Below the pieces are notes generated by a model. The model was not told the origin of the DNA. It saw only the letters and a program-made list of their open reading frames with translations, and did no database searches. Below, in pieces: positions 987 to 49,926 of a stretch of 49,995 bases of DNA. The DNA is from a phage, in the sequence record NC_105507.1; one strand, 5' to 3'. The number at the start of each line of letters is the position of its first letter. Positions within the stretch are counted from its first letter, which is position 1. The position numbers and the translations under genes were made by a program.

Positions 987-1463
987 TTAGCTATTCGTGC
1001 TGTTATCACCTTTGTAGAATCGTCCGCCTGGTTCGTAGTCTGAATTTTTGACTACGCGCAACATATCGTATTTGTCGCAACGGGTAGTAAGAGGCTTACC
1101 GTTAGAATCAAACCGCAGATCTGGACGACAAAATGATGCGCGGTATCCTTTGCATCCATTATATTTGTAGTCGTTATGCACCTTTTGTGCTCCAGCGGCT
1201 GAAATCATACCACGCTTTCGCCACTGGTTAACGACTTGCTGAGATACGCGCAGACGTCGAGCCATAGCAGGAACGCCGCCGTAATACTCGATCAGAATGT
1301 CAAGGCGAGATTTCAGGCTTGCTTTTACCTCATCTCGCAGGATAAGAAATCCGGTTCGGTGTTTTCGTGGTTTTTTGTCTTTACCTCGTCGCGTTCCGTT
1401 GTTACCGTTAATAGTGCGCTTGTCGATCTCACCCGTAGATACTGCAATTCGTGCATCTTTCAT
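987..1463 (-). CDS. HTH DNA-binding protein (Cro/YdaS-like)
   Basis: helix-turn-helix-like segment GVPAMARRLRVSQQVVNQWRKRG; GAGGTG RBS 5 nt upstream of ATG 1463. Confidence 0.55.
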   Translation of the reverse strand: MKDARIAVSTGEIDKRTINGNNGTRRGKDKKPRKHRTGFLILRDEVKASLKSRLDILIEYYGGVPAMARRLRVSQQVVNQWRKRGMISAAGAQKVHNDYKYNGCKGYRASFCRPDLRFDSNGKPLTTRCDKYDMLRVVKNSDYEPGGRFYKGDNSTNS

Positions 1464-1475
1464 CTAGTCACCTCA

Positions 1476-1518
1476 TAGCATTTTTTGTTAAAACAGTTTA
1501 TTGTAATGAGTCTATTAT
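1476..1518 (+). promoter_or_regulatory. TAGCAC-box promoter-like cassette
   Basis: TAGCATTTTTTGTTAAAAC box then TATTAT 22 bp after TTGTTA; upstream of helicase gene. Confidence 0.5.
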
Positions 1519-1550
1519 ATACTCCAAATGGCATTTTTTAAAGGTTTAAG

Positions 1551-3548
1551 ATGATTCCAAATATCGAAAAACAAATATCAGCATTAGGCGAGGCAGTAAT
1601 AAAAAGCATCCAAGAGCGATTCACGGTTGGCAATATAGTGCCTTATCCTTATCAGTGCGTTGCGTATGCAGAGATCGCAAAGCGCATGAAAAACTATGAG
1701 CATCCTTTCTTTGTTAAGGCTTCTGTATCGGCTGGCAAAACATTGATGTTTGCGATGGTTGCGGCGCAATGCCGCAAAATGGGATTGAAAATGATGGTCC
1801 TTGCTCGCCAGGCTGAAATTGTTGATCAGGATTCGGAAGAGATCAGCAATCTTGGCGTGCCAAACTCAATCTATTGCGCCGGACTGAAAACAAAAAGCGC
1901 ATACTTTCCGATCGTAGTCGGTTCTGAGGGCACTGTAGTAAACGGATTGTTTAAGTCGTTAGGTGATTATGTTCCGCACGTTATCGGTATTGATGAATGT
2001 CACCAGGTGGATTGGGAGGATCTCGCGGACGCGATAGAAAATAATGAATCTTACCAGCAGATGACCACTAAGAAGGATTTGCCAGTACTGATTGGAGAAG
2101 AACAGCAATTTGATTCCAATGGCGATCCAATGTTCGGAACAGGGCGCACACAGTACACCGTAATAATCATGGAAATGATGCGCAGGTGTCGCGAGGCATA
2201 CGGGCACGAATTGCGAATATTCGGCATGACTGGATCTGAGTTTCGCGGCGTGGTTCCAATACTGGTTGAAGATAAGAACAAAAAGGGATTCTGGCGTGAG
2301 CAAGTAACTAACATAGACACAAACTACTTAATCAAATTCGGTTCGGTAGTGCCAACAAATTTCGGCGACGTCGGCGACCTGGGGTATGACCTTTCAGAGT
2401 TCGAGGCCAGTAGCGAGGACGGCGTTTCAGACTTTGACGCTAAAACATTGCGCAAGATGGAAGAAAAGATCCATCAAGACGCAACAATGACACAGAAAAT
2501 CATGGCTAAAGTCCATGAGATATGCAAAGACAGGAACGGAGTTTTAGTTACATGCGCAGGGGAAAGGCACTGCAAGGAGGCCGCCGCCGCACTGCCGCCA
2601 GGCGTTGAATACAGGATCATAACTGGCAAGACTGGAGATAATCAGCGTAAAGAGTGGCTGAGGGAGGCATACGAGGGAAAAGTAAAATACATCTTCCAGG
2701 TACAGGCGCTTACCACTGGCGTTAACGTTCCGTTTTGGGATACTTCGGTAATGCTGAGAAAGATAGGATCTCTAACATTGCTTATCCAGCTTTTGGGGCG
2801 CGGCATGCGACTGCTTAAGCAATGGCACATTGAACAGGGATTCAAGAAAAAAGATCATCTTGTATTGGATTTTGCAGGTACTATGGATGAGTTAGGTGAT
2901 TTGTATTTCGATCCAATCCTTGAGCAAGCGCAATTCCAAAAGAGATTTACAAACGGGAAAGAGCCTAAGACTTGTCCGATATGTGGAACGCTAAACAGCT
3001 TTTACGCTCGCCGATGTATGCACGTAGACGATAACGGGAAGCGATGTGAGCATTTTTGGACTTACAGAATTTGCGAGGACCAGGTAGATCCGAGAACGAA
3101 AAAGATAATCAAGCGCGGTTGTGGAACAAAAAACGACGTAGTGGCGAGAGTATGCCGTTGTTGCGATATTTCTCTTGTCGATCCTAACGAGAAGTTAAGC
3201 GGTAAGCACTACACCAAAAACGATTGGTGCAACGTTAAATCTTTCCGCGTTGATATGACGAAAAACCAGAAAGGAATTATTTTTTGCTATGAGCTTGAGG
3301 CCAACGGCGATACGTTCAAGGCATACGAAAGATTTTTCCCTGAGTCAGAAAGCAACATTTGCCGGACGATATGGAGAAAAATAGCATTGCAGCACATACC
3401 GGATCGCAAGATTGCTGGTATGGTGGCGAGCTATAGAAATGCTCGTAAAATAATGTCATACGCTCATCACATCATGCCGCCTGTACGCGTAACGCATCGC
3501 AAAAACGGCAAAGGTGAGGATAACATTGCAAAACGGGAGTTTGTTTAA
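1551..3548 (+). CDS. SF2 DNA helicase with C-terminal Zn-ribbons
   Basis: Walker A SAGKT, DECH box, LLGRGMRL motif VI-like; C-terminal CxxC clusters. Confidence 0.85.
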   Translation: MIPNIEKQISALGEAVIKSIQERFTVGNIVPYPYQCVAYAEIAKRMKNYEHPFFVKASVSAGKTLMFAMVAAQCRKMGLKMMVLARQAEIVDQDSEEISNLGVPNSIYCAGLKTKSAYFPIVVGSEGTVVNGLFKSLGDYVPHVIGIDECHQVDWEDLADAIENNESYQQMTTKKDLPVLIGEEQQFDSNGDPMFGTGRTQYTVIIMEMMRRCREAYGHELRIFGMTGSEFRGVVPILVEDKNKKGFWREQVTNIDTNYLIKFGSVVPTNFGDVGDLGYDLSEFEASSEDGVSDFDAKTLRKMEEKIHQDATMTQKIMAKVHEICKDRNGVLVTCAGERHCKEAAAALPPGVEYRIITGKTGDNQRKEWLREAYEGKVKYIFQVQALTTGVNVPFWDTSVMLRKIGSLTLLIQLLGRGMRLLKQWHIEQGFKKKDHLVLDFAGTMDELGDLYFDPILEQAQFQKRFTNGKEPKTCPICGTLNSFYARRCMHVDDNGKRCEHFWTYRICEDQVDPRTKKIIKRGCGTKNDVVARVCRCCDISLVDPNEKLSGKHYTKNDWCNVKSFRVDMTKNQKGIIFCYELEANGDTFKAYERFFPESESNICRTIWRKIALQHIPDRKIAGMVASYRNARKIMSYAHHIMPPVRVTHRKNGKGEDNIAKREFV

Positions 3549-5035: not shown

Positions 5036-5078
5036 TAGCACTTTTTGTTAAAACGCCCGGCATTTTGTCGGGCATAAT
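5036..5078 (+). promoter_or_regulatory. TAGCAC-box promoter-like cassette
   Basis: exact box, hairpin GCCCGGC..GTCGGGC, CATAAT at 22-bp spacing. Confidence 0.55.
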
Positions 5079-8252: not shown

Positions 8253-8295
8253 AATATACCCGACACTAGGCCGGGCGTTTTAACAAAAAATGCTA
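8253..8295 (-). promoter_or_regulatory. TAGCAC-box promoter-like cassette
   Basis: box variant, hairpin arms identical to the 5055-5072 copy, TATATT at 22-bp spacing. Confidence 0.5.
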
Positions 8296-10414: not shown

Positions 10415-10457
10415 ATTTTAACGGCCCAATACTACCCCGTTTTGTCAAAAAGTGCTA
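10415..10457 (-). promoter_or_regulatory. TAGCAC-box promoter-like cassette
   Basis: box variant containing TTGACA; TAAAAT in loop of GGGCCGT/ACGGCCC hairpin at 22-bp spacing. Confidence 0.55.
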
Positions 10458-10676
10458 TTTGATCCGCTCTATTGCAACCAGAAGTCGATCAGGCTGGCGG
10501 TCGCTGTAGCATTCTCCTGTAATCCCATCCTTAAACGTAAAGTAAAGCGCCTTATGATATGAAAAACCAATCAGCCAACCTACCGCCGTTTTTTTGATGG
10601 GCCTGACTATATCGCCAGGATTGAAAGTCTTTGTGGTAGAATGCGTTACTTTGTAACGGTTTTCACTGTTTATCAC
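10455..10676 (-). CDS. hypothetical protein
   Basis: ORF in leftward early cluster. Confidence 0.5.
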   Translation of the reverse strand: MINSENRYKVTHSTTKTFNPGDIVRPIKKTAVGWLIGFSYHKALYFTFKDGITGECYSDRQPDRLLVAIERIK

Positions 10677-11088: not shown

Positions 11089-11131
11089 ATTATGCCAGGT
11101 TTTTACACCTGGCTTTTAACAAAAAGTGCTA
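11089..11131 (-). promoter_or_regulatory. TAGCAC-box promoter-like cassette
   Basis: box, GCCAGG/CCTGGC hairpin, CATAAT. Confidence 0.55.
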
Positions 11132-20580: not shown

Positions 20581-20623
20581 TAGCACTTTTTGTTAAAACT
20601 TCCGCAAGGGCATTTGGTAAAGT
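20581..20623 (+). promoter_or_regulatory. TAGCAC-box promoter-like cassette
   Basis: exact box right after TAA stop; TAAAGT in loop of AAGGGCA/TGCCCTT hairpin. Confidence 0.5.
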
Positions 20624-22675: not shown

Positions 22676-23203
22676 ATGGCTAAAAATGTTGAGCCTGCTG
22701 TAAAGGCATTAAATTTCAAAGAGTTATACAATAAAACTTATGGCGATATTGTCACGCTAAACAACCGCCACAAGTACACGCCGGAACAGGTTTTTGATAT
22801 GGCGATCCGCTATTTCACTTGGGCTGAAGAGAATCACATCCAGGCGGCTGAAACTGCTTCCTTTCAGGGTGACGTGTACGAGAGCAGAGTTTACAAGCCT
22901 CGCGTTTTCACGGTTAACGGATTCAGCTTGTATCTCGGCGTGACTGAGGCTGCCGTAAGCAAATGGCGTAAAGAGCCTGGATTCTGCGATGTGATGGAGT
23001 TTGTTGATAAAGTAATTTACGAGCAAAAATTCCAGCTTGCGGCAAATAACATGATTAATGCTGGATTTATCGGTAAAGAGATCGGCGTAGAGAAGCCAGC
23101 AACAGTGAGCGTTGAAGCTAGCGCGGCAGCTAATGCAAGCATTGACGCAGTAACTGCCGATGAGGTGAAAGAGGCTGTTATTGATATTCTGGAGCAACTT
23201 TAA
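22676..23203 (+). CDS. terminase small subunit
   Basis: HTH-like segment, position immediately upstream of large terminase; AGGAGG RBS. Confidence 0.7.
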   Translation: MAKNVEPAVKALNFKELYNKTYGDIVTLNNRHKYTPEQVFDMAIRYFTWAEENHIQAAETASFQGDVYESRVYKPRVFTVNGFSLYLGVTEAAVSKWRKEPGFCDVMEFVDKVIYEQKFQLAANNMINAGFIGKEIGVEKPATVSVEASAAANASIDAVTADEVKEAVIDILEQL

Positions 23204-24771
23204 TGATCATATGGGAAGATTTGACGGCGGCGCAAAAGCGAGCCATTAAAGAAATCAGTGAGCATTCATTCGAAAAGATGATCAGAATCTGGTTTCAGTT
23301 ATTGCAGGGGCAAAAATTCCAGAGCAACTGGCATTTTAGCTTATTGTGCAGTGAGGTAGAGAAGATCATCAATGGAGAGTCGCAGAATGTGATTTTCAAC
23401 ATTACGCCAGGTAGCGGTAAGACTGAGATTTTCTCGATCCACATGTCACCATACGCGTCATTGAAAACTCGGAAGGTGAGAAACCTTAACCTTTCGTTTA
23501 GTGATGGACTTGTCCAGCAAAACAGCAACAGGATAAAGGAGATTATCGGTTCTCCTGAGTGGCAAGAGCTATGGCCAGGAAAACTGGCAAAGGCGAGCGC
23601 AAAAGATCTCATAGTTACGGATGGCGGCAAGGTTAAATTGCAAGTTAACTCACGTTCTATTGGCGGACAGGTAACAGGTTTGCGTGGCGGCTATATGGAC
23701 GATGGTTTTACTGGTATGCTGGTTCTGGACGATCCAGACAAGCCGGATGATATGCTTTCTAAGGTCAAGCGTGAGGCGATCCACATGCGGTTAAAAAACA
23801 CAGTGCGATCGCGTCGAATGAAAGACACTACGCCGATTGTTATGGTGCAACAGCGACTACACGTTAATGATTCCACCTGGTTCATGCTTAATGGCGGGAT
23901 GGGCGGTATTGAGTTTAAAGTTGTGAGCATTCCTGCGCTGGTTACGAAAGAATACCGCGAAACGCTTCCTGATTGGTTGAAGCCTGAATTTGATCGTGAT
24001 GTGTTGTCAAGTAAGCCAGTGATGATAGATGGCGTTGCTCATTATTCATTTTGGCCTGCGAAGGAAAGCGCGGAGGAATTGCTTGCATTGCGCAATGCAG
24101 ATCCTTATACGTTCGCCAGTCAGTACCAACAGCAACCCATCGCGCTTGGCGGCAACGTGTTTAAAACAGAGTGGTTCCAGTATTACGGCAGCGGCGAAAA
24201 ATGCGCACTTCCTAAACCGGATCGCTTTGAATACACATTTATTACTGGTGATACCGCGCAGAAGGCCGGAGAGCTTAACGACTATTCAGTTTTTTGTTAT
24301 TGGGGGATGTATAAGAATCGCGTTTACTTCATTGATGGCATTCGCGGAAAGTGGGAAGCGCCGGATCTTGAATTAAATTTTATTGCCTTCGTTAATCAGT
24401 GCTGGAAGCGCAATAAGGAGTGTGGCAGCTTGCGACGTATCCACATTGAGGATAAGGCCAGCGGCACGGGTTTGATTCAGGGGGCCAAAAAGAAGATCCC
24501 GATTGATATAAATCCCGTTCAGCGAAGCAATGACAAGGTAACGCGAGCAATGGACGCCGCGCCAGTAATGAGGGCCGGACGTGTGGCACTGCCAGAAAGT
24601 CATCCCATGTTACCTGAGATACTGGCAGAGGTTGCAGCGTTCACTTTTGACGATTCTCATCCCCATGATGATATTGTCGATAATATAGTTGATGCTGTTA
24701 ACGTCGAAATGAACTTGGCTGATGATCCGGTAGCAAGGATGAAAAAGCTGGCTGGTCTACGCAATAAATAG
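23203..24771 (+). CDS. terminase large subunit
   Basis: 522 aa, P-loop-like TPGSGKT, acidic C-terminal nuclease region, synteny. Confidence 0.85.
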   Translation: MIIWEDLTAAQKRAIKEISEHSFEKMIRIWFQLLQGQKFQSNWHFSLLCSEVEKIINGESQNVIFNITPGSGKTEIFSIHMSPYASLKTRKVRNLNLSFSDGLVQQNSNRIKEIIGSPEWQELWPGKLAKASAKDLIVTDGGKVKLQVNSRSIGGQVTGLRGGYMDDGFTGMLVLDDPDKPDDMLSKVKREAIHMRLKNTVRSRRMKDTTPIVMVQQRLHVNDSTWFMLNGGMGGIEFKVVSIPALVTKEYRETLPDWLKPEFDRDVLSSKPVMIDGVAHYSFWPAKESAEELLALRNADPYTFASQYQQQPIALGGNVFKTEWFQYYGSGEKCALPKPDRFEYTFITGDTAQKAGELNDYSVFCYWGMYKNRVYFIDGIRGKWEAPDLELNFIAFVNQCWKRNKECGSLRRIHIEDKASGTGLIQGAKKKIPIDINPVQRSNDKVTRAMDAAPVMRAGRVALPESHPMLPEILAEVAAFTFDDSHPHDDIVDNIVDAVNVEMNLADDPVARMKKLAGLRNK

Positions 24772-24788
24772 CACTAATTGCTAAAAAG
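24769..24788 (+). repeat. degenerate TAGCAC box copy
   Basis: TAGCACTAATTGCTAAAAAG overlapping terminase stop; no -10 at canonical spacing. Confidence 0.4.
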
Positions 24789-24800
24789 TTATATAATCAA

Positions 24801-24830
24801 GGCTGGATTTTTCCAGCCTTTTTTATTATG
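24801..24830 (+). terminator. rho-independent terminator
   Basis: GGCTGGA..TCCAGCC stem plus T6. Confidence 0.6.
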
Positions 24831-24841
24831 GAGATTTGACG

Positions 24842-29367: not shown

Positions 29368-29392
29368 CTGATAGCATAAAAAAACATTGCAC

Positions 29393-29410
29393 GTTTAACA
29401 AAAAGTGCTA
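29393..29410 (-). repeat. degenerate TAGCAC box copy (antisense in structural module)
   Basis: revcomp TAGCACTTTTTGTTAAAC; no good -10 at canonical spacing. Confidence 0.4.
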
Positions 29411-29417
29411 TCATCTA

Positions 29418-29444
29418 GGCCGTTACATTTAACGGCCTTTTTTA
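29418..29444 (+). terminator. rho-independent terminator
   Basis: GGCCGTT/AACGGCC stem plus T6. Confidence 0.6.
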
Positions 29445-29457
29445 TGGAGGAAGCAAA

Positions 29458-32417: not shown

Positions 32418-33083
32418 ATGCACTTGCCTAATGGTTCTCAAATTTTCATCGGCGTTAATATGGGTGATCCGATTCAGGCTACGGCTATTTCAAATGCTGA
32501 TGATCCTGTTTTTACGACTGCAAAAAACACTCAAAGCATCAAAAAAGGCGCTTATGTTCTTATTGAAACATCTTCCTGGGGCAAACTTGTTAGTCGCGTG
32601 CTTCGAGTTAAGGAGGTATCAGATGATGCAAGCGTTACTCTTGAGGGTGTAAGCACGAAAGACACCAATGTTTTTCCGGCTGGTTCTAATACCGCAACTT
32701 TCCGAGAAGTGAAATCTTGGGTAGAGGTTCCTTGCGTACAGGATCTTGCGCAGGACGGCGGCGAGCAACAGTATTACACTTATCAGTGTTTGGCTGATGA
32801 CCAAGAGCAGCAGTTACCGACCTACAAGAGCGCGGTTTTTCTTACCTACACTTTCGCTCATGAATATGATAACCCGATTTATCCGATCTTGCGCGAGGCT
32901 GATGAATCCGGCGACGTAACCGCTTTGCGTATGTACGTGCCGAAAGCTAAAGAGATGCGTTGCTGGGCTGGCGTATTGTCTTTTAATGACATTCCGCAAA
33001 CAACTATGAACGAAATGGAAACTGTTTCCCTTTCTGTATCTCTGAAAGGCCGATTCACGTTCTTACCTTCCGACGTTAAGTAA
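32418..33083 (+). CDS. major tail protein
   Basis: lambda V position, followed by terminator, GGAGG RBS. Confidence 0.65.
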   Translation: MHLPNGSQIFIGVNMGDPIQATAISNADDPVFTTAKNTQSIKKGAYVLIETSSWGKLVSRVLRVKEVSDDASVTLEGVSTKDTNVFPAGSNTATFREVKSWVEVPCVQDLAQDGGEQQYYTYQCLADDQEQQLPTYKSAVFLTYTFAHEYDNPIYPILREADESGDVTALRMYVPKAKEMRCWAGVLSFNDIPQTTMNEMETVSLSVSLKGRFTFLPSDVK

Positions 33084-33088
33084 AACAA

Positions 33089-33110
33089 GGGGGCGTTGCG
33101 CCCCTTTTTT
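33089..33110 (+). terminator. rho-independent terminator
   Basis: GGGGCG/CGCCCC stem plus T6. Confidence 0.7.
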
Positions 33111-33125
33111 CATTCCTGTAAAATC

Positions 33126-33168
33126 AATCTATCAAATAAATTAATTCCACTTTTAACAAAAAGTGCTA
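33126..33168 (-). promoter_or_regulatory. TAGCAC-box promoter-like cassette, antisense to tail genes
   Basis: revcomp box, TAGATT at 22-bp spacing, pointing leftward into terminator hairpin. Confidence 0.4.
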
Positions 33169-33183
33169 TAAGGAGATCTTAAG

Positions 33184-33501
33184 ATGGCAAAGATGAAACT
33201 AACGTTAGGCCCACTGCCTGATTTTAAGCTGCCTGTTTCTTTCGTGCTTCCAAATGGTGATGAGCAAGTTATTGTTTTTACCGTGCGCCACAAGAAGGCA
33301 AGCGAAATTCACGAACGATACACGGCAGAAAAGCCGATGAGCGACGTAGAAATGATCACCTTCCTTGCTTCCGGTTGGGATCTGGAAGATGAATTTAACG
33401 AGGAAAACGTTGCTAAATTGCTGGATTATTACCCGTCTGCGTCATTATCGCTGACTGGTCATTATATGAAAGCACTTGCGGGGCAGCGGGTAAAAAACTA
33501 A
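33184..33501 (+). CDS. tail assembly chaperone (lambda G-like)
   Basis: position upstream of tape measure; AAGGAG RBS; slippery site near 3' end. Confidence 0.8.
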   Translation: MAKMKLTLGPLPDFKLPVSFVLPNGDEQVIVFTVRHKKASEIHERYTAEKPMSDVEMITFLASGWDLEDEFNEENVAKLLDYYPSASLSLTGHYMKALAGQRVKN

Positions 33502-33818
33502 AGCGGGCGGTTTACCTGTTTTACCTCAAGCCGCCAACTGACGCACAATTAGAGGCCGTCGGCCTATCCCGTTCAGACTACGAAGGGGAGGATCCGCCGG
33601 AGGTAATTTTTGATGAATCAATGTTTCAATCTTGGGATCTGTTTTGCGCTATGCAGACGCAATGGAGATCGACTAGCGGCAGTGTGTATGGGTTCGACTA
33701 TAACGTTTTGCCTATGCTTTTTGACATTTACAAGATTGAGGATCGGGAGATGGCGCTAAATGATTTGCGCATCATGGAACAAAAGGCGCTAGAAATGATT
33801 CATTCAAACAAAACATAA
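33184..33818 (+). CDS. tail assembly chaperone frameshift product (G-T-like, -1 frameshift)
   Basis: A_AAA_AAC heptamer at 33492-33498 one codon before stop; -1 frame stays open to 33818. Confidence 0.7.
33492..33498 (+). other. -1 programmed ribosomal frameshift slippery heptamer
   Basis: AAAAAAC in X_XXY_YYZ register relative to chaperone frame; GGCGG..CCGCC hairpin just downstream. Confidence 0.7.
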
Positions 33819-49890: not shown

Positions 49891-49908
49891 TTGTAAAATC
49901 CTCCTAAA

Positions 49909-49926
49909 TAGCACTTTTTGCTAATG
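49909..49926 (+). repeat. degenerate TAGCAC box copy
   Basis: TAGCACTTTTTGCTAATG overlapping tail-fibre RBS region, no -10 at canonical spacing. Confidence 0.35.

What the first reader, a model, noticed from the sequence alone, without database searches (positions are those of the whole stretch)
33126..33168. Antisense-oriented box cassette inside the tail gene module
A minus-oriented box with TAGATT at canonical spacing sits between the major tail protein gene and the tail chaperone gene, where every gene is on the plus strand. It points leftward into the GGGGCG/CGCCCC terminator hairpin about 40 bp away, so any transcript would be a very short antisense RNA. It may equally be a relic or an insulator.
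Basis: partly seen in the sequence, partly recalled or inferred. Interest (0 to 1): 0.5.

Follow-up and report, generated by a model that had tools for sequence, protein, structure and literature searches.

The report
Conserved backward promoter cassette after tail-tube gene
Between the tail-tube and tail-chaperone genes of this T1-like phage sits a backward-pointing copy of the family's repeated promoter box, kept intact in many distant relatives and interleaved with a forward promoter, so it probably tunes tail-gene expression rather than being a relic.

Summary
The window is a T1-like phage (Drexlerviridae). The "box" is that family's published 21-nt repeat, aaATAGCACnnnTTGnTAAAA, whose function is unknown. 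The window has 18 copies against 0.18 expected. In 12-14 copies the box is followed, after 3+16 nt, by a -10-like hexamer, a Shine-Dalgarno site and a gene.

The copy at 33151-33169 lies on the minus strand with no mismatch. TAGATT (33131-33126) sits at exactly that spacing and is preceded by TG. No gene follows, only the tail-tube terminator.

It is not a relic. In 34 distinct relatives carrying this backward box:
- 34/34 keep TAnnnT at that exact offset, across 11 different hexamers.
- 30/34 keep the extended -10 TG.
- The box stays nearly invariant (19/19 in most) although synonymous sites are saturated.
- Box-less relatives lack the minus -10.

New here: a sense -10 (TAAAAT, 33119-33124) lies 1 nt away and is conserved in nearly all lineages, with or without the box. 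The two predicted promoters are back to back and should exclude each other.

The minus-strand terminator tail is not conserved, so the short RNA is probably a by-product.

Best reading (inferred, no transcript data): a cis-acting decoy promoter that limits chaperone and tape-measure transcription.

The parts
32418..33083 (+). Major tail (tail-tube) protein gene; upstream neighbour
   Evidence: ORF. Pfam Phage_tail_3, E = 2.6e-63. Annotated as major tail protein in relatives.
33087..33110 (.). Intrinsic terminator hairpin (GGGGGCG-TTG-CGCCCC) with a T6 run on the + strand. On the minus strand the same hairpin is followed by CTTGTTTTAC (33089->33080).
   Evidence: Scored on both strands. RNA folds: -14 kcal/mol for the + strand stretch, -12 for the minus. 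Annotated as a terminator in phage Sip. The minus T-tail is not conserved in other lineages.
33096..33101 (+). -35-like TTGCGC of the predicted sense promoter P(+), inside the terminator loop and 3' arm. It lies 17 nt upstream of TAAAAT.
   Evidence: Only 3 of 6 matches to TTGACA, so it fell below the threshold of the scan tool. A TTGC at 16-17 nt from the -10 recurs in the lineages I checked by hand (sequences). TTGC loops are common in T1-like terminators, so this hexamer is weak evidence.
33119..33124 (+). -10 hexamer TAAAAT of the predicted sense promoter P(+). Predicted + start near 33131.
   Evidence: TAAAAT, TAGAAT or TACAAT in 34/34 box-bearing relatives. TAATAT, TATAAT, CATAAT or TATCAT at the equivalent place in most box-less genera, including TLS, Kyungwonvirus, Sauletekiovirus, Eclunavirus and Rtp-like phages; a few are weaker (TTTAAT). 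The start site is inferred, not measured.
33126..33131 (-). -10 hexamer TAGATT of the antisense box promoter P(-). Predicted minus start near 33119.
   Evidence: Same 3+16 spacing as 12 canonical cassettes. TAnnnT in 34/34 distinct box-bearing relatives with 11 different hexamers. Absent in box-less relatives of comparable divergence.
33133..33134 (-). TG at -15/-14 of P(-): extended -10 (TGATAGATT)
   Evidence: TGA or TGG in 30/34 relatives. The other 4 have GTG with hexamers nearer the consensus (TATCAT, TAGCAT, TATCTT). By my reading of the listing, G at -14 is also present in 11/12 canonical cassettes of the window.
33132..33150 (-). 19-nt spacer (3+16) between box and -10. It is A/T-rich here, whereas canonical cassettes have G/C-rich spacers, many containing a hairpin-forming inverted repeat.
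   Evidence: Length is invariant in relatives while the sequence diverges (6-17 of 19 identical to the window; 6-13 outside the window's own genus).
33151..33169 (-). Box ATAGCACTTTTTGTTAAAA, a copy of the Drexlerviridae 21-nt repeat. It spans about -50 to -32 of P(-) and about +21 to +39 of P(+).
   Evidence: 0 mismatches. 19/19 identical in 9 of the 11 diverged lineages compared, including T1, SH6 and phiL, where flanking 4-fold sites are only 19-45% identical; the other two are BEK26 (18/19) and BrunoManser, which carries the GAA subtype (15/19). Family described in PMC11447400.
33170..33175 (+). Shine-Dalgarno AAGGAG of the chaperone gene, abutting the 5' end of the box
   Evidence: The distance from box to ATG varies from 12 to 23 nt among relatives, so this abutment is not conserved.
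33184..33501 (+). Tail assembly (tape-measure) chaperone gene; downstream neighbour
   Evidence: Pfam Phage_TAC_4, E = 5.2e-31. Annotated as tape measure chaperone in relatives.

Best explanation
The cassette is a selectively maintained, minus-oriented promoter of the phage's own 'box' class. It consists of a box centred near -41, a fixed 19-nt spacer, and an extended -10 (TGnTAnnnT).

It lies back to back with, and 1 nt from, a conserved sense sigma-70-type -10 (TAAAAT) that restarts transcription of the chaperone and tape-measure genes just after the tail-tube terminator. The predicted starts are 33119 on the minus strand and 33131 on the plus strand. Each hexamer therefore sits on the other promoter's start region, and RNA polymerase should be able to occupy only one orientation at a time.

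I propose that the element works in cis. When box promoters are active, polymerase is drawn into the leftward orientation. That would occlude the rightward promoter and obstruct read-through from the tail-tube gene, keeping chaperone and tape-measure expression low relative to the tail tube.

The leftward RNA would be a by-product. In this phage it should run into the two-way terminator after about 36-38 nt.

Shown by computation: sequence, geometry, conservation, and co-variation of box and minus -10.
Inferred: both start sites, mutual exclusion, the regulatory effect, and whether a protein binds the box.
For: 1. The box class behaves as promoters. 12-14 of 18 copies have box + 3 + 16 (15 in two copies) nt + a -10-like hexamer + a Shine-Dalgarno site. 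The start codon lies 49-65 nt after the box in the 13 copies with a called gene. None of these copies shows a -35 at 17 bp.

2. The target copy has the same geometry, plus TG at -15/-14.

3. Purifying selection acts on the minus promoter.
- 34/34 distinct box-bearing relatives keep TAnnnT at the exact offset.
- Across 11 hexamer variants, at least 8 changes fall in the three middle positions and none in T1, A2 or T6. My estimate: P is about 0.004 if the six positions changed at equal rates.
- 30/34 keep the TG.
- The box is 19/19 in most lineages while 4-fold sites are saturated.
- For T1, BLAST matched only the intergenic segment 33088-33169 and not the flanking genes.

4. In box-less relatives of comparable divergence the same positions vary freely. 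By my reading, 0 of 8 have TAnnnT on the minus strand. The background frequency is 1.8% per position.

5. The sense -10 is conserved with or without the box.

6. The cassette is anchored to the promoter/terminator side, not the gene side. The distance from box to terminator is fixed, while the distance from box to ATG varies from 12 to 23 nt.

7. There is an internal analogue at 1475. A sigma-70 promoter on the minus strand (TTTAAA-17-TATAAT, 1542-1514) serves a Cro-like regulator gene. Its -10 overlaps the -10 of a box promoter that drives a helicase gene. The box lies in the regulator gene's leader, abutting its Shine-Dalgarno site, as at the target.

8. Experimental precedent in E. coli: activating one direction of a bidirectional promoter represses the other through polymerase competition (PMC12825309).
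Against: - No transcript data exist. I found no transcriptome of any T1-like phage.
- In this window TAGATT is the weakest -10 of all box cassettes (3.1 bits).
- The spacer is A/T-rich, unlike canonical cassettes, so the promoter may be weak.
- The -35 of the sense promoter is poor (TTGCGC, 3 of 6), and the scan tool did not call it.
- The predicted 12-bp separation of starts is not one of the common bidirectional classes of 18, 10 and 23 bp.
- That same study found basal promoter activities too low for competition unless one direction is activated.
- The box-bearing lineages are not phylogenetically independent.
- Exchange among the roughly 18 box copies in a genome could help keep the box itself identical.
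Confidence: 0.4

Rival explanations
1. The RNA product is the point. A short cis-antisense RNA, in the manner of lambda OOP or P22 sar, pairs with the 3' terminator hairpin and tail of the tail-tube mRNA, or with read-through transcripts. This would alter their stability (for example through RNase III) or their termination.
For: The promoter is conserved. In this window the hairpin with a T-rich tail on the minus strand would give a defined RNA of about 36-38 nt. In every lineage the RNA's 5' part is complementary to the 3' end of the tail-tube mRNA.
Against: The minus-strand T-tract is not conserved: 6 of 8 T in the window's group, 3-4 of 8 in Tunavirus, 1-2 in others. There is therefore no conserved RNA end. 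All conserved RNA sequence is already explained by the + strand terminator and the sense -10. The fold is unremarkable (z = -1.75). Rfam gives only sub-threshold matches (27 bits against a gathering score of 55).
Confidence: 0.15
2. The box is mainly a protein-binding site. A phage factor, possibly the Cro-like regulator, or a host factor bound at +21 to +39 of the chaperone leader would block or modulate sense transcription or translation. The minus -10 would be secondary.
For: All three late-region boxes are non-canonical (24768, 29393, 33151). The 29393 copy lies inside the core of a conserved sense promoter for the major head gene, where a bound protein would repress. At the target the box abuts the Shine-Dalgarno site. 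A Cro-like HTH gene with a box in its own leader is present.
Against: This does not explain the strict retention of TGnTAnnnT at exact spacing in 34/34 relatives. The distance from box to Shine-Dalgarno site and ATG is variable. DNA-bound activators did not hinder elongation in the E. coli study. No binding factor is known. The HTH match is below Pfam cut-offs (28.6 bits against 30).
Confidence: 0.15
3. The cassette is a recombination linker or a mobile promoter module with no local function. Its conserved 19-nt (or longer) identity would promote modular exchange between phages, comparable to the promoter-stem-loop cassettes of T4-like phages (from my own knowledge). Its orientation here would be an accident.
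For: The distribution among genera is patchy, with presence and absence interleaved at similar chaperone identity. L019, which has the box, and TLS-like phages, which lack it, share the same leader end apart from an indel of roughly 30 nt (my count). The mosaic junction between the window and BEK26 falls at the box end: identity is 0.88-0.98 up to 33167 and then 0.52-0.62.
Against: Neutral hitch-hiking would not hold the T1/A2/T6 and TG invariants of a unique, non-repeated hexamer while neighbouring bases change. The orientation and the 1-nt gap to the sense -10 are identical in all 34 sequences.
Confidence: 0.12
4. It is a chance match or a decaying relic of an inverted promoter.
For: Within this single genome the hexamer is weak, and TAnnnT is expected at about 5.7% per position in the local composition.
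Against: 18 copies against 0.18 expected. The box is a perfect match. All promoter features are conserved across saturating divergence.
Confidence: 0.03

Closest known systems
Drexlerviridae 21-nt intergenic direct repeat (aaATAGCACnnnTTGnTAAAA), described for phage TLS (PMC11447400)
   Same: Same sequence family. The target matches the 19-nt core perfectly. The family is intergenic, and the authors list its function as an open question.
   Different: The paper describes the repeats as lying in the direction of transcription, about 76 nt upstream of start codons. The target is antisense and has no gene downstream. TLS itself lacks this copy (L018; no repeat next to terminator T42). The paper does not note the fixed -10 at 3+16 nt.
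Prokaryotic bidirectional promoters and polymerase competition (Grainger laboratory; PMC12825309)
   Same: Two divergent starts within one polymerase footprint. Binding in one orientation excludes the other. Activating one direction represses the other.
   Different: Those promoters share one pseudo-symmetric -10, with starts usually 18, 10 or 23 bp apart. Here two separate hexamers lie 1 nt apart, with a predicted separation of 12 bp. One direction has no gene.
Phage cis-antisense RNAs: lambda OOP (antisense to the 3' end of cII) and P22 sar (antisense within arc-ant).
   Same: A short antisense transcript from a promoter inside a same-strand operon that runs into a terminator.
   Different: Those RNAs have defined ends and pair with a functional target site. 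Here the terminator tail is not conserved, and the only complementarity is to a terminator.
Box-1475 divergent promoter pair in this same window (Cro-like regulator gene and helicase gene)
   Same: A sigma-70-type promoter reads through a reverse box into a gene whose Shine-Dalgarno site abuts the box. The box promoter fires the other way, with an overlapping or adjacent -10.
   Different: At 1475 the box promoter serves a real gene (a 665-aa helicase), and the two -10 hexamers overlap with a 1-nt offset (the 18-bp type). At the target the box promoter serves no gene.
Mycobacteriophage L5 stoperators (the comparison raised by the TLS authors)
   Same: A short asymmetric repeat scattered through transcribed regions.
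   Different: Stoperators act through a prophage repressor in a temperate phage and need no -10. Here nearly every box carries a -10 at fixed spacing, the curated T1 and TLS phages are described as virulent, and no repressor is known.

Membership tests
Drexlerviridae 21-nt direct repeat (TLS DR family) | Match to the consensus aaATAGCACnnnTTGnTAAAA | tested here: met
   The 19-nt core matches with 0 mismatches at 33151-33169 on the minus strand. The two leading 'aa' are 'tt' here.
Drexlerviridae 21-nt direct repeat (TLS DR family) | Intergenic location | tested here: met
   Lies in the 100-nt gap 33084-33183 between two Pfam-supported genes.
Drexlerviridae 21-nt direct repeat (TLS DR family) | Oriented in the direction of transcription, about 76 nt upstream of a start codon (as published) | tested here: not met
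   Antisense to all surrounding genes. The first minus ORF with a Shine-Dalgarno-like site starts 92 nt away, inside the tail-tube gene. A 16-codon ATG ORF just after the predicted start is not conserved.
Box-class promoter cassette (defined here from the window's canonical copies) | -10-like TAnnnT hexamer 3+16 nt after the box, with G at -14 | tested here: met
   TGA-TAGATT at the exact spacing. Conserved in 34/34 relatives.
Sigma-70 extended -10 promoter | TGnTAnnnT motif | tested here: met
   TGATAGATT on the minus strand, 33134->33126.
Sigma-70 extended -10 promoter | Transcription actually starts 6-8 nt downstream | not testable with these tools
   No transcriptome of a T1-like phage was found.
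Bidirectional promoter in the sense of Warman and Grainger | One shared pseudo-symmetric -10 element, with divergent starts typically 18, 10 or 23 bp apart | tested here: not met
   Two separate hexamers (33119-33124 on +, 33126-33131 on -) with a predicted separation of 12 bp. Criteria taken from PMC12825309.
Bidirectional promoter in the sense of Warman and Grainger | Mutually exclusive polymerase binding in the two orientations | not testable with these tools
   Inferred from geometry only.
Short cis-antisense RNA (OOP/sar type) | Defined short transcript ending at an intrinsic terminator | tested here: inconclusive
   A terminator-like site on the minus strand is present in this window. 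Its T-tail is not conserved in other box-bearing lineages.
Short cis-antisense RNA (OOP/sar type) | Complementarity to a functional site of a target mRNA (ribosome-binding site or coding 3' end) | tested here: not met
   The predicted short RNA (33119 to about 33082) covers only the terminator and the last few bases of the tail-tube ORF.
Any curated RNA family (Rfam 15) | Score at or above the family's gathering threshold | tested here: not met
   Best match is STnc50 at 27.1 bits against a gathering score of 55.
L5-type stoperator | Repeat acts without its own -10, in one fixed orientation relative to transcription, through a repressor | tested here: not met
   Boxes carry a -10 at fixed spacing. 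Both orientations relative to transcription occur in the late region. Repressor binding was not testable.

The most novel reading that the evidence does not exclude
The box is the binding site of one phage-made factor that drives the T1-type early and middle programme. On this reading, the non-canonical, reversed boxes in the late region are the other half of the switch.
- At 33151 a box-dependent decoy promoter would out-compete the sense promoter of the chaperone and tape-measure genes.
- At 29393 a box lies inside the core of the major head gene promoter.

The same factor would then turn early genes on and hold sigma-70-type late promoters off. The late promoters would be released when the factor declines or is titrated by the roughly 18 boxes on every replicated genome copy. 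This would answer the open question of what the 21-nt repeats do, and how T1-like phages time late expression without their own polymerase or sigma factor.
Probability: 0.12. Interest if true: 0.7.

Novelty: new variant of a known kind. Interest (0 to 1): 0.4.

Why it matters
T1-like phages are common laboratory and fermentation contaminants and candidates for phage therapy, yet their transcription programme is essentially unmapped. The 2024 TLS re-annotation explicitly asks what the 21-nt repeats do.

This locus contributes three things.

1. It gives that question a concrete handle. The repeats behave as promoter upstream elements with a -10 at a fixed distance, a geometry like that of a class II activator site.

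2. One copy is kept in a gene-less antisense position, interlocked with a conserved sense promoter and a terminator, within a 100-bp gap. That makes it a compact natural test case for promoter competition or insulation in setting the ratio of tail tube to chaperone and tape-measure protein.

3. A single-base change (T33130C, the state found in box-less relatives) should separate the models.

If the cassette turns out to be only a weak spurious promoter, the finding is a modest annotation detail.

Tried and rejected
- RNA structure in the sense leader. The 7-bp-arm palindrome CACTTTT-AACA-AAAAGTG folds no better than shuffles (z = -0.38). The arms beyond TTTT/AAAA are not conserved.
- Rfam. Only sub-threshold matches.
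- Small ORF on the antisense RNA. An ATG at 33112-33110 would give 16 codons, but the ATG is absent in most lineages.
- Reading the target as a sense promoter of the major-head-gene type, with the box complement as spacer plus TGnTAT. The '-35' is not conserved (TTCCAC, CAATTC, ATTAAC). Position 6 of the hexamer is never T in 9 lineages (TATAAG, TATCAA, TATTTA, TATCAC and others). The start would fall on or after the Shine-Dalgarno site.
- UP-element reading. The box spans about -50 to -32, roughly 8 bp too close to the -10. This comparison with the UP consensus is from my own knowledge.
- TTGnTA as a true -35. It lies 22 bp from the -10, which is not workable for sigma-70.
- Sigma-54-like reading (TGGCAC-N5-TTGC against TAGCAC-N3-TTGC). 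The spacing is 2 bp short, and it would not explain the conserved -10.
- IHF site at TATCAA. The spacing to TTR is off by one and is not conserved.
- Literature. No transcriptome or antisense report for Drexlerviridae was found. The 2004 T1 genome paper is not held.
- Annotation. The curated T1 record annotates nothing in this gap.
- Greedy ORF map. It is unreliable for strand in the 13.8-17.9 kb small-gene region, so I used box-anchored gene calls instead.

Full report
**What the window is**

The region around the finding is 97-99% identical to T1-like coliphages such as SLUR29, JK16, tunus and swan01, which belong to Drexlerviridae, Tempevirinae.

The finding lies in the 100-nt gap 33084-33183.
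- Upstream is the tail-tube gene (32418-33083; Pfam Phage_tail_3).
- Downstream is the tail assembly chaperone gene (33184-33501; Phage_TAC_4).
- A DUF1799 ORF and an 893-aa tape-measure gene follow.
- All ORFs I take as genes from about 20.6 to 42.7 kb are on the + strand.

**The observation**

The reverse complement of 33126-33169 reads ATAGCACTTTTTGTTAAAA-gtg-gaattaatttatttga-TAGATT.

The "box" is not a private motif of this window. It is the 21-nt direct repeat aaATAGCACnnnTTGnTAAAA described for phage TLS, which has 18 intergenic copies. The authors noted similar repeats in T1, Rtp and Rogue1. They proposed stoperator-like, enhancer-like or UP-like roles and listed the function as an open question (PMC11447400).

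The window holds 18 matches at <=2 mismatches, against 0.18 expected. The target copy (33151-33169, minus) is a perfect match.

**What the box class looks like**

Oriented by the asymmetric consensus, 12 copies have the same layout: box, 3 nt, 16 nt, then a -10-like hexamer (CATAAT x4, TATATT x2, and TATAAT, TATTAT, TAAAAT, TACATT, TATAGT and TAAGT-like TAAAGT once each). Two further copies have a 15-nt spacer.

Further features of these canonical copies:
- A Shine-Dalgarno site follows. The start codon lies 49-65 nt after the box in the 13 copies with a called gene.
- G occupies -14 in 11 of 12, by my reading of the listing.
- The spacer is G/C-rich, and many spacers contain a hairpin-forming inverted repeat.
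- There is no -35 at 17 bp. The TTGnTA inside the box is 22 bp from the -10.

With the start taken 7 nt after the hexamer, the box spans about -50 to -32 and is centred near -41. That matches the geometry of a class II activator site. This is inference, and no binding factor is known.

Genes served by canonical boxes include two helicases, a DNA methyltransferase, a Cor-like exclusion protein and many small ORFs.

**The target copy**

It has the same geometry, with TGA-TAGATT, which is an extended -10. No gene follows. The predicted start at 33119 is about 15 nt from the tail-tube terminator hairpin.

That hairpin is scored as terminator-like on both strands; the minus-strand tail is CTTGTTTTAC. 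The transcript would therefore be about 36-38 nt long.

Within this genome alone the case is weak:
- TAGATT is the poorest hexamer of all cassettes (3.1 bits against 4.9-8.6).
- About 1.5% of all window hexamers score as well.
- TAnnnT is expected at about 5.7% per position in the local composition.

**Comparative evidence**

I collected the gap between the tail-tube and chaperone genes from IMG/VR and GenBank. This gave 82 distinct sequences spanning Tunavirinae, Tempevirinae and unassigned genera.

Among the 34 that carry the minus-oriented box:
- The box is nearly invariant. It is 19/19 in 9 of the 11 diverged lineages compared with the window. BEK26 is 18/19, and BrunoManser carries the GAA subtype.
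- The spacer length never changes, while its sequence diverges to 6-13 of 19 identical outside the window's own genus.
- The hexamer at the exact offset is TAnnnT in 34/34. There are 11 variants: TACGAT, TAGGAT, TAGAGT, TAGCAT, TAGATT, TATATT, TATCAT, TATCTT, TACAGT, TAAGAT, TAGGCT.
- All three middle positions have changed repeatedly, at least 8 changes in total. T1, A2 and T6 have never changed. I estimate P at about 0.004 if the six positions changed at equal rates.
- TG at -15/-14 is present in 30/34. The four exceptions carry hexamers closer to the consensus.

How deep this divergence is:
- Four-fold degenerate sites between the window and T1, SH6, phiL, BrunoManser and BananaBelafonte are 19-45% identical, which is saturated.
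- For T1, BLAST recovered only 33088-33169, that is the terminator through the box, and not the flanking genes.

In box-less relatives of comparable chaperone identity (TLS, IsaakIselin, Motto, ESP2949-1 and others), the equivalent six bases read TGAGGT, TGGGGT, AGCTTG and the like on the minus strand. By my reading, 0 of 8 are TAnnnT. The background frequency of the pattern in box-less leaders is 1.8% per position.

The cassette is therefore under selection as a promoter-like unit. It is not a relic.

**A second, sense promoter**

One nucleotide to the left of the antisense hexamer, the + strand reads TAAAAT (33119-33124).
- This hexamer is TAAAAT, TAGAAT or TACAAT in all 34 box-bearing sequences.
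- In most box-less genera the equivalent hexamer is TAATAT, TATAAT, CATAAT or TATCAT. This includes Rtp-like phages that lack the terminator. A few lineages have a weaker TTTAAT.
- A TTGC in the terminator loop lies 16-17 nt upstream in the lineages I checked by hand. This is weak evidence: the hexamer matches only 3 of 6, TTGC loops are common in T1-like terminators, and the scan tool did not call a promoter here.

I read this as an ancestral sense promoter that restarts transcription of the chaperone and tape-measure genes after the tail-tube terminator. Its predicted start is 33131.

The two promoters interlock. The T-12/A-11 of each lies at the -1/+1 of the other, and both would melt the same roughly 13 bp. 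Binding in the two orientations should therefore be mutually exclusive.

The box lies at +21 to +39 of the sense leader. Its distance to the chaperone ATG varies from 12 to 23 nt, while its distance to the terminator and sense -10 is fixed. The cassette is thus coupled to the promoter side and not to the ribosome-binding site.

**The RNA product**

The T-rich tail after the hairpin on the minus strand is good only in the window's group (6 of 8 T). It is poor in Tunavirus (3-4 of 8) and in some others (1-2 of 8). A defined short RNA is therefore not the conserved feature.

Other checks on a product role were negative:
- No conserved small ORF.
- No significant structure.
- No Rfam match above threshold.

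**Internal analogue**

At 1475, a sigma-70 promoter on the minus strand (TTTAAA-17-TATAAT, 10 of 12) serves a Cro-like regulator gene at 987-1463. That gene matches phrog_2856 and gives weak HTH matches below the Pfam cut-offs.
- Its -10 overlaps, offset by 1 nt, the -10 of a box promoter that drives the helicase gene.
- The box lies in the regulator gene's leader and abuts its Shine-Dalgarno site.

The target has the same architecture, except that the box-driven arm has no gene. This suggests its role is to impose box-dependent control on the sense arm.

In E. coli, activation of one direction of a bidirectional promoter represses the other through polymerase competition. Basal activities alone are too low for this effect (PMC12825309). 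The target is not a member of that class as defined, because it has two adjacent hexamers rather than one shared element, and a predicted start separation of 12 bp rather than 18, 10 or 23.

**Verdict**

- 'Relic' is rejected.
- 'Short antisense RNA' is plausible here but is not the conserved feature.
- 'Insulator' is compatible with the data.

My preferred mechanism is a cis-acting decoy promoter that competes with the sense promoter and obstructs read-through. It rests on geometry and conservation only, and I put its confidence at about 0.4.

The rivals are an RNA-product role, the box as a protein operator in the leader, and a recombination linker. The last is supported by one observation: the mosaic junction between the window and BEK26 falls at the box end.

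No transcript data exist for any T1-like phage that I could find. The curated T1 record annotates nothing in this gap.

Noticed in passing
window 29380-29457 (box 29393-29411, minus); loci L040-L118: The other 'antisense' box lies just upstream of the major head protein gene. It reads better as part of a sense promoter. In about 74 distinct Drexlerviridae loci the + strand has an A-tract, then TTGCAC, TTGAAC, TTGACC or TTGACG, then 16 nt that are the box complement ending in TGn, then TATCAT, TATATT, TATTAT or TATTCT. In the window and its closer relatives a hairpin with a T-run and the Shine-Dalgarno site follow; more distant lineages lack the hairpin. The minus hexamer at 3+16 (TATCAG) has no T at position 6 in the window and, in the lineages I read by hand, falls on the upstream stop codon. 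The TLS repeat DR7 (neg) next to terminator T35 appears to be the homologue.
   Followed up: partly
window 1463-1551: A divergent promoter pair. A Cro-like regulator gene (987-1463, minus) has a promoter TTTAAA-17-TATAAT (1542-1514, minus). Its -10 overlaps, offset by 1 nt, the TATTAT of the box-1475 promoter that drives a helicase gene. The box complement lies in the regulator gene's leader, which suggests autoregulation by polymerase competition.
   Followed up: partly
window 24768-24841: A box of the TAA subtype (ATAGCACTAATTGCTAAAA) between the 522-aa ORF 23203-24771 (presumed large terminase; not checked) and the portal gene. It has no -10 at the canonical 3+16 spacing (GATTTT). Instead TATATAAT lies 3 nt after the box, followed by a terminator-like hairpin. 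All three late-region boxes (24768, 29393, 33151) are non-canonical.
   Followed up: no
window: spacers of canonical boxes, e.g. 5054-5078, 8253-8277, 11089-11113, 20599-20623: Many canonical cassettes carry a G/C-rich inverted repeat between the box and the -10 (for example ccggcattttgtcggg and aggtgtaaaaacctgg). The upstream gene's stop codon often abuts the box (taaATAG). Each cassette may therefore terminate the upstream transcript and restart transcription.
   Followed up: no
window about 33168-33217, compared with L038 (phage BEK26): A mosaic junction. Identity to BEK26 is 0.88-0.98 up to 33167 and falls to 0.52-0.62 after about 33217. The tail-tube protein is 89% identical but the chaperone only 62%. 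The box and leader thus mark a recombination boundary.
   Followed up: partly
window 10440-10458 (minus): This box copy contains a perfect TTGACA (ATAGCACTTTTTGACAAAA) where other copies have TTGTTA or TTGCTA. The resemblance of that part of the box to a -35 hexamer, placed 22 bp from the -10, is unexplained.
   Followed up: no
window 33184-33818: The chaperone ORF (33184-33501) and the DUF1799 ORF (33621-33818) are separated by about 120 nt. The curated T1 record annotates a joined frameshift product across the equivalent pair. The frameshift site in this window was not located.
   Followed up: no
window 49908-49926 (+): A degenerate box (2 mismatches) near the window end. It is followed by a poly-A run and the hairpin ccccgcataagcgggg rather than a -10 at canonical spacing.
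   Followed up: no
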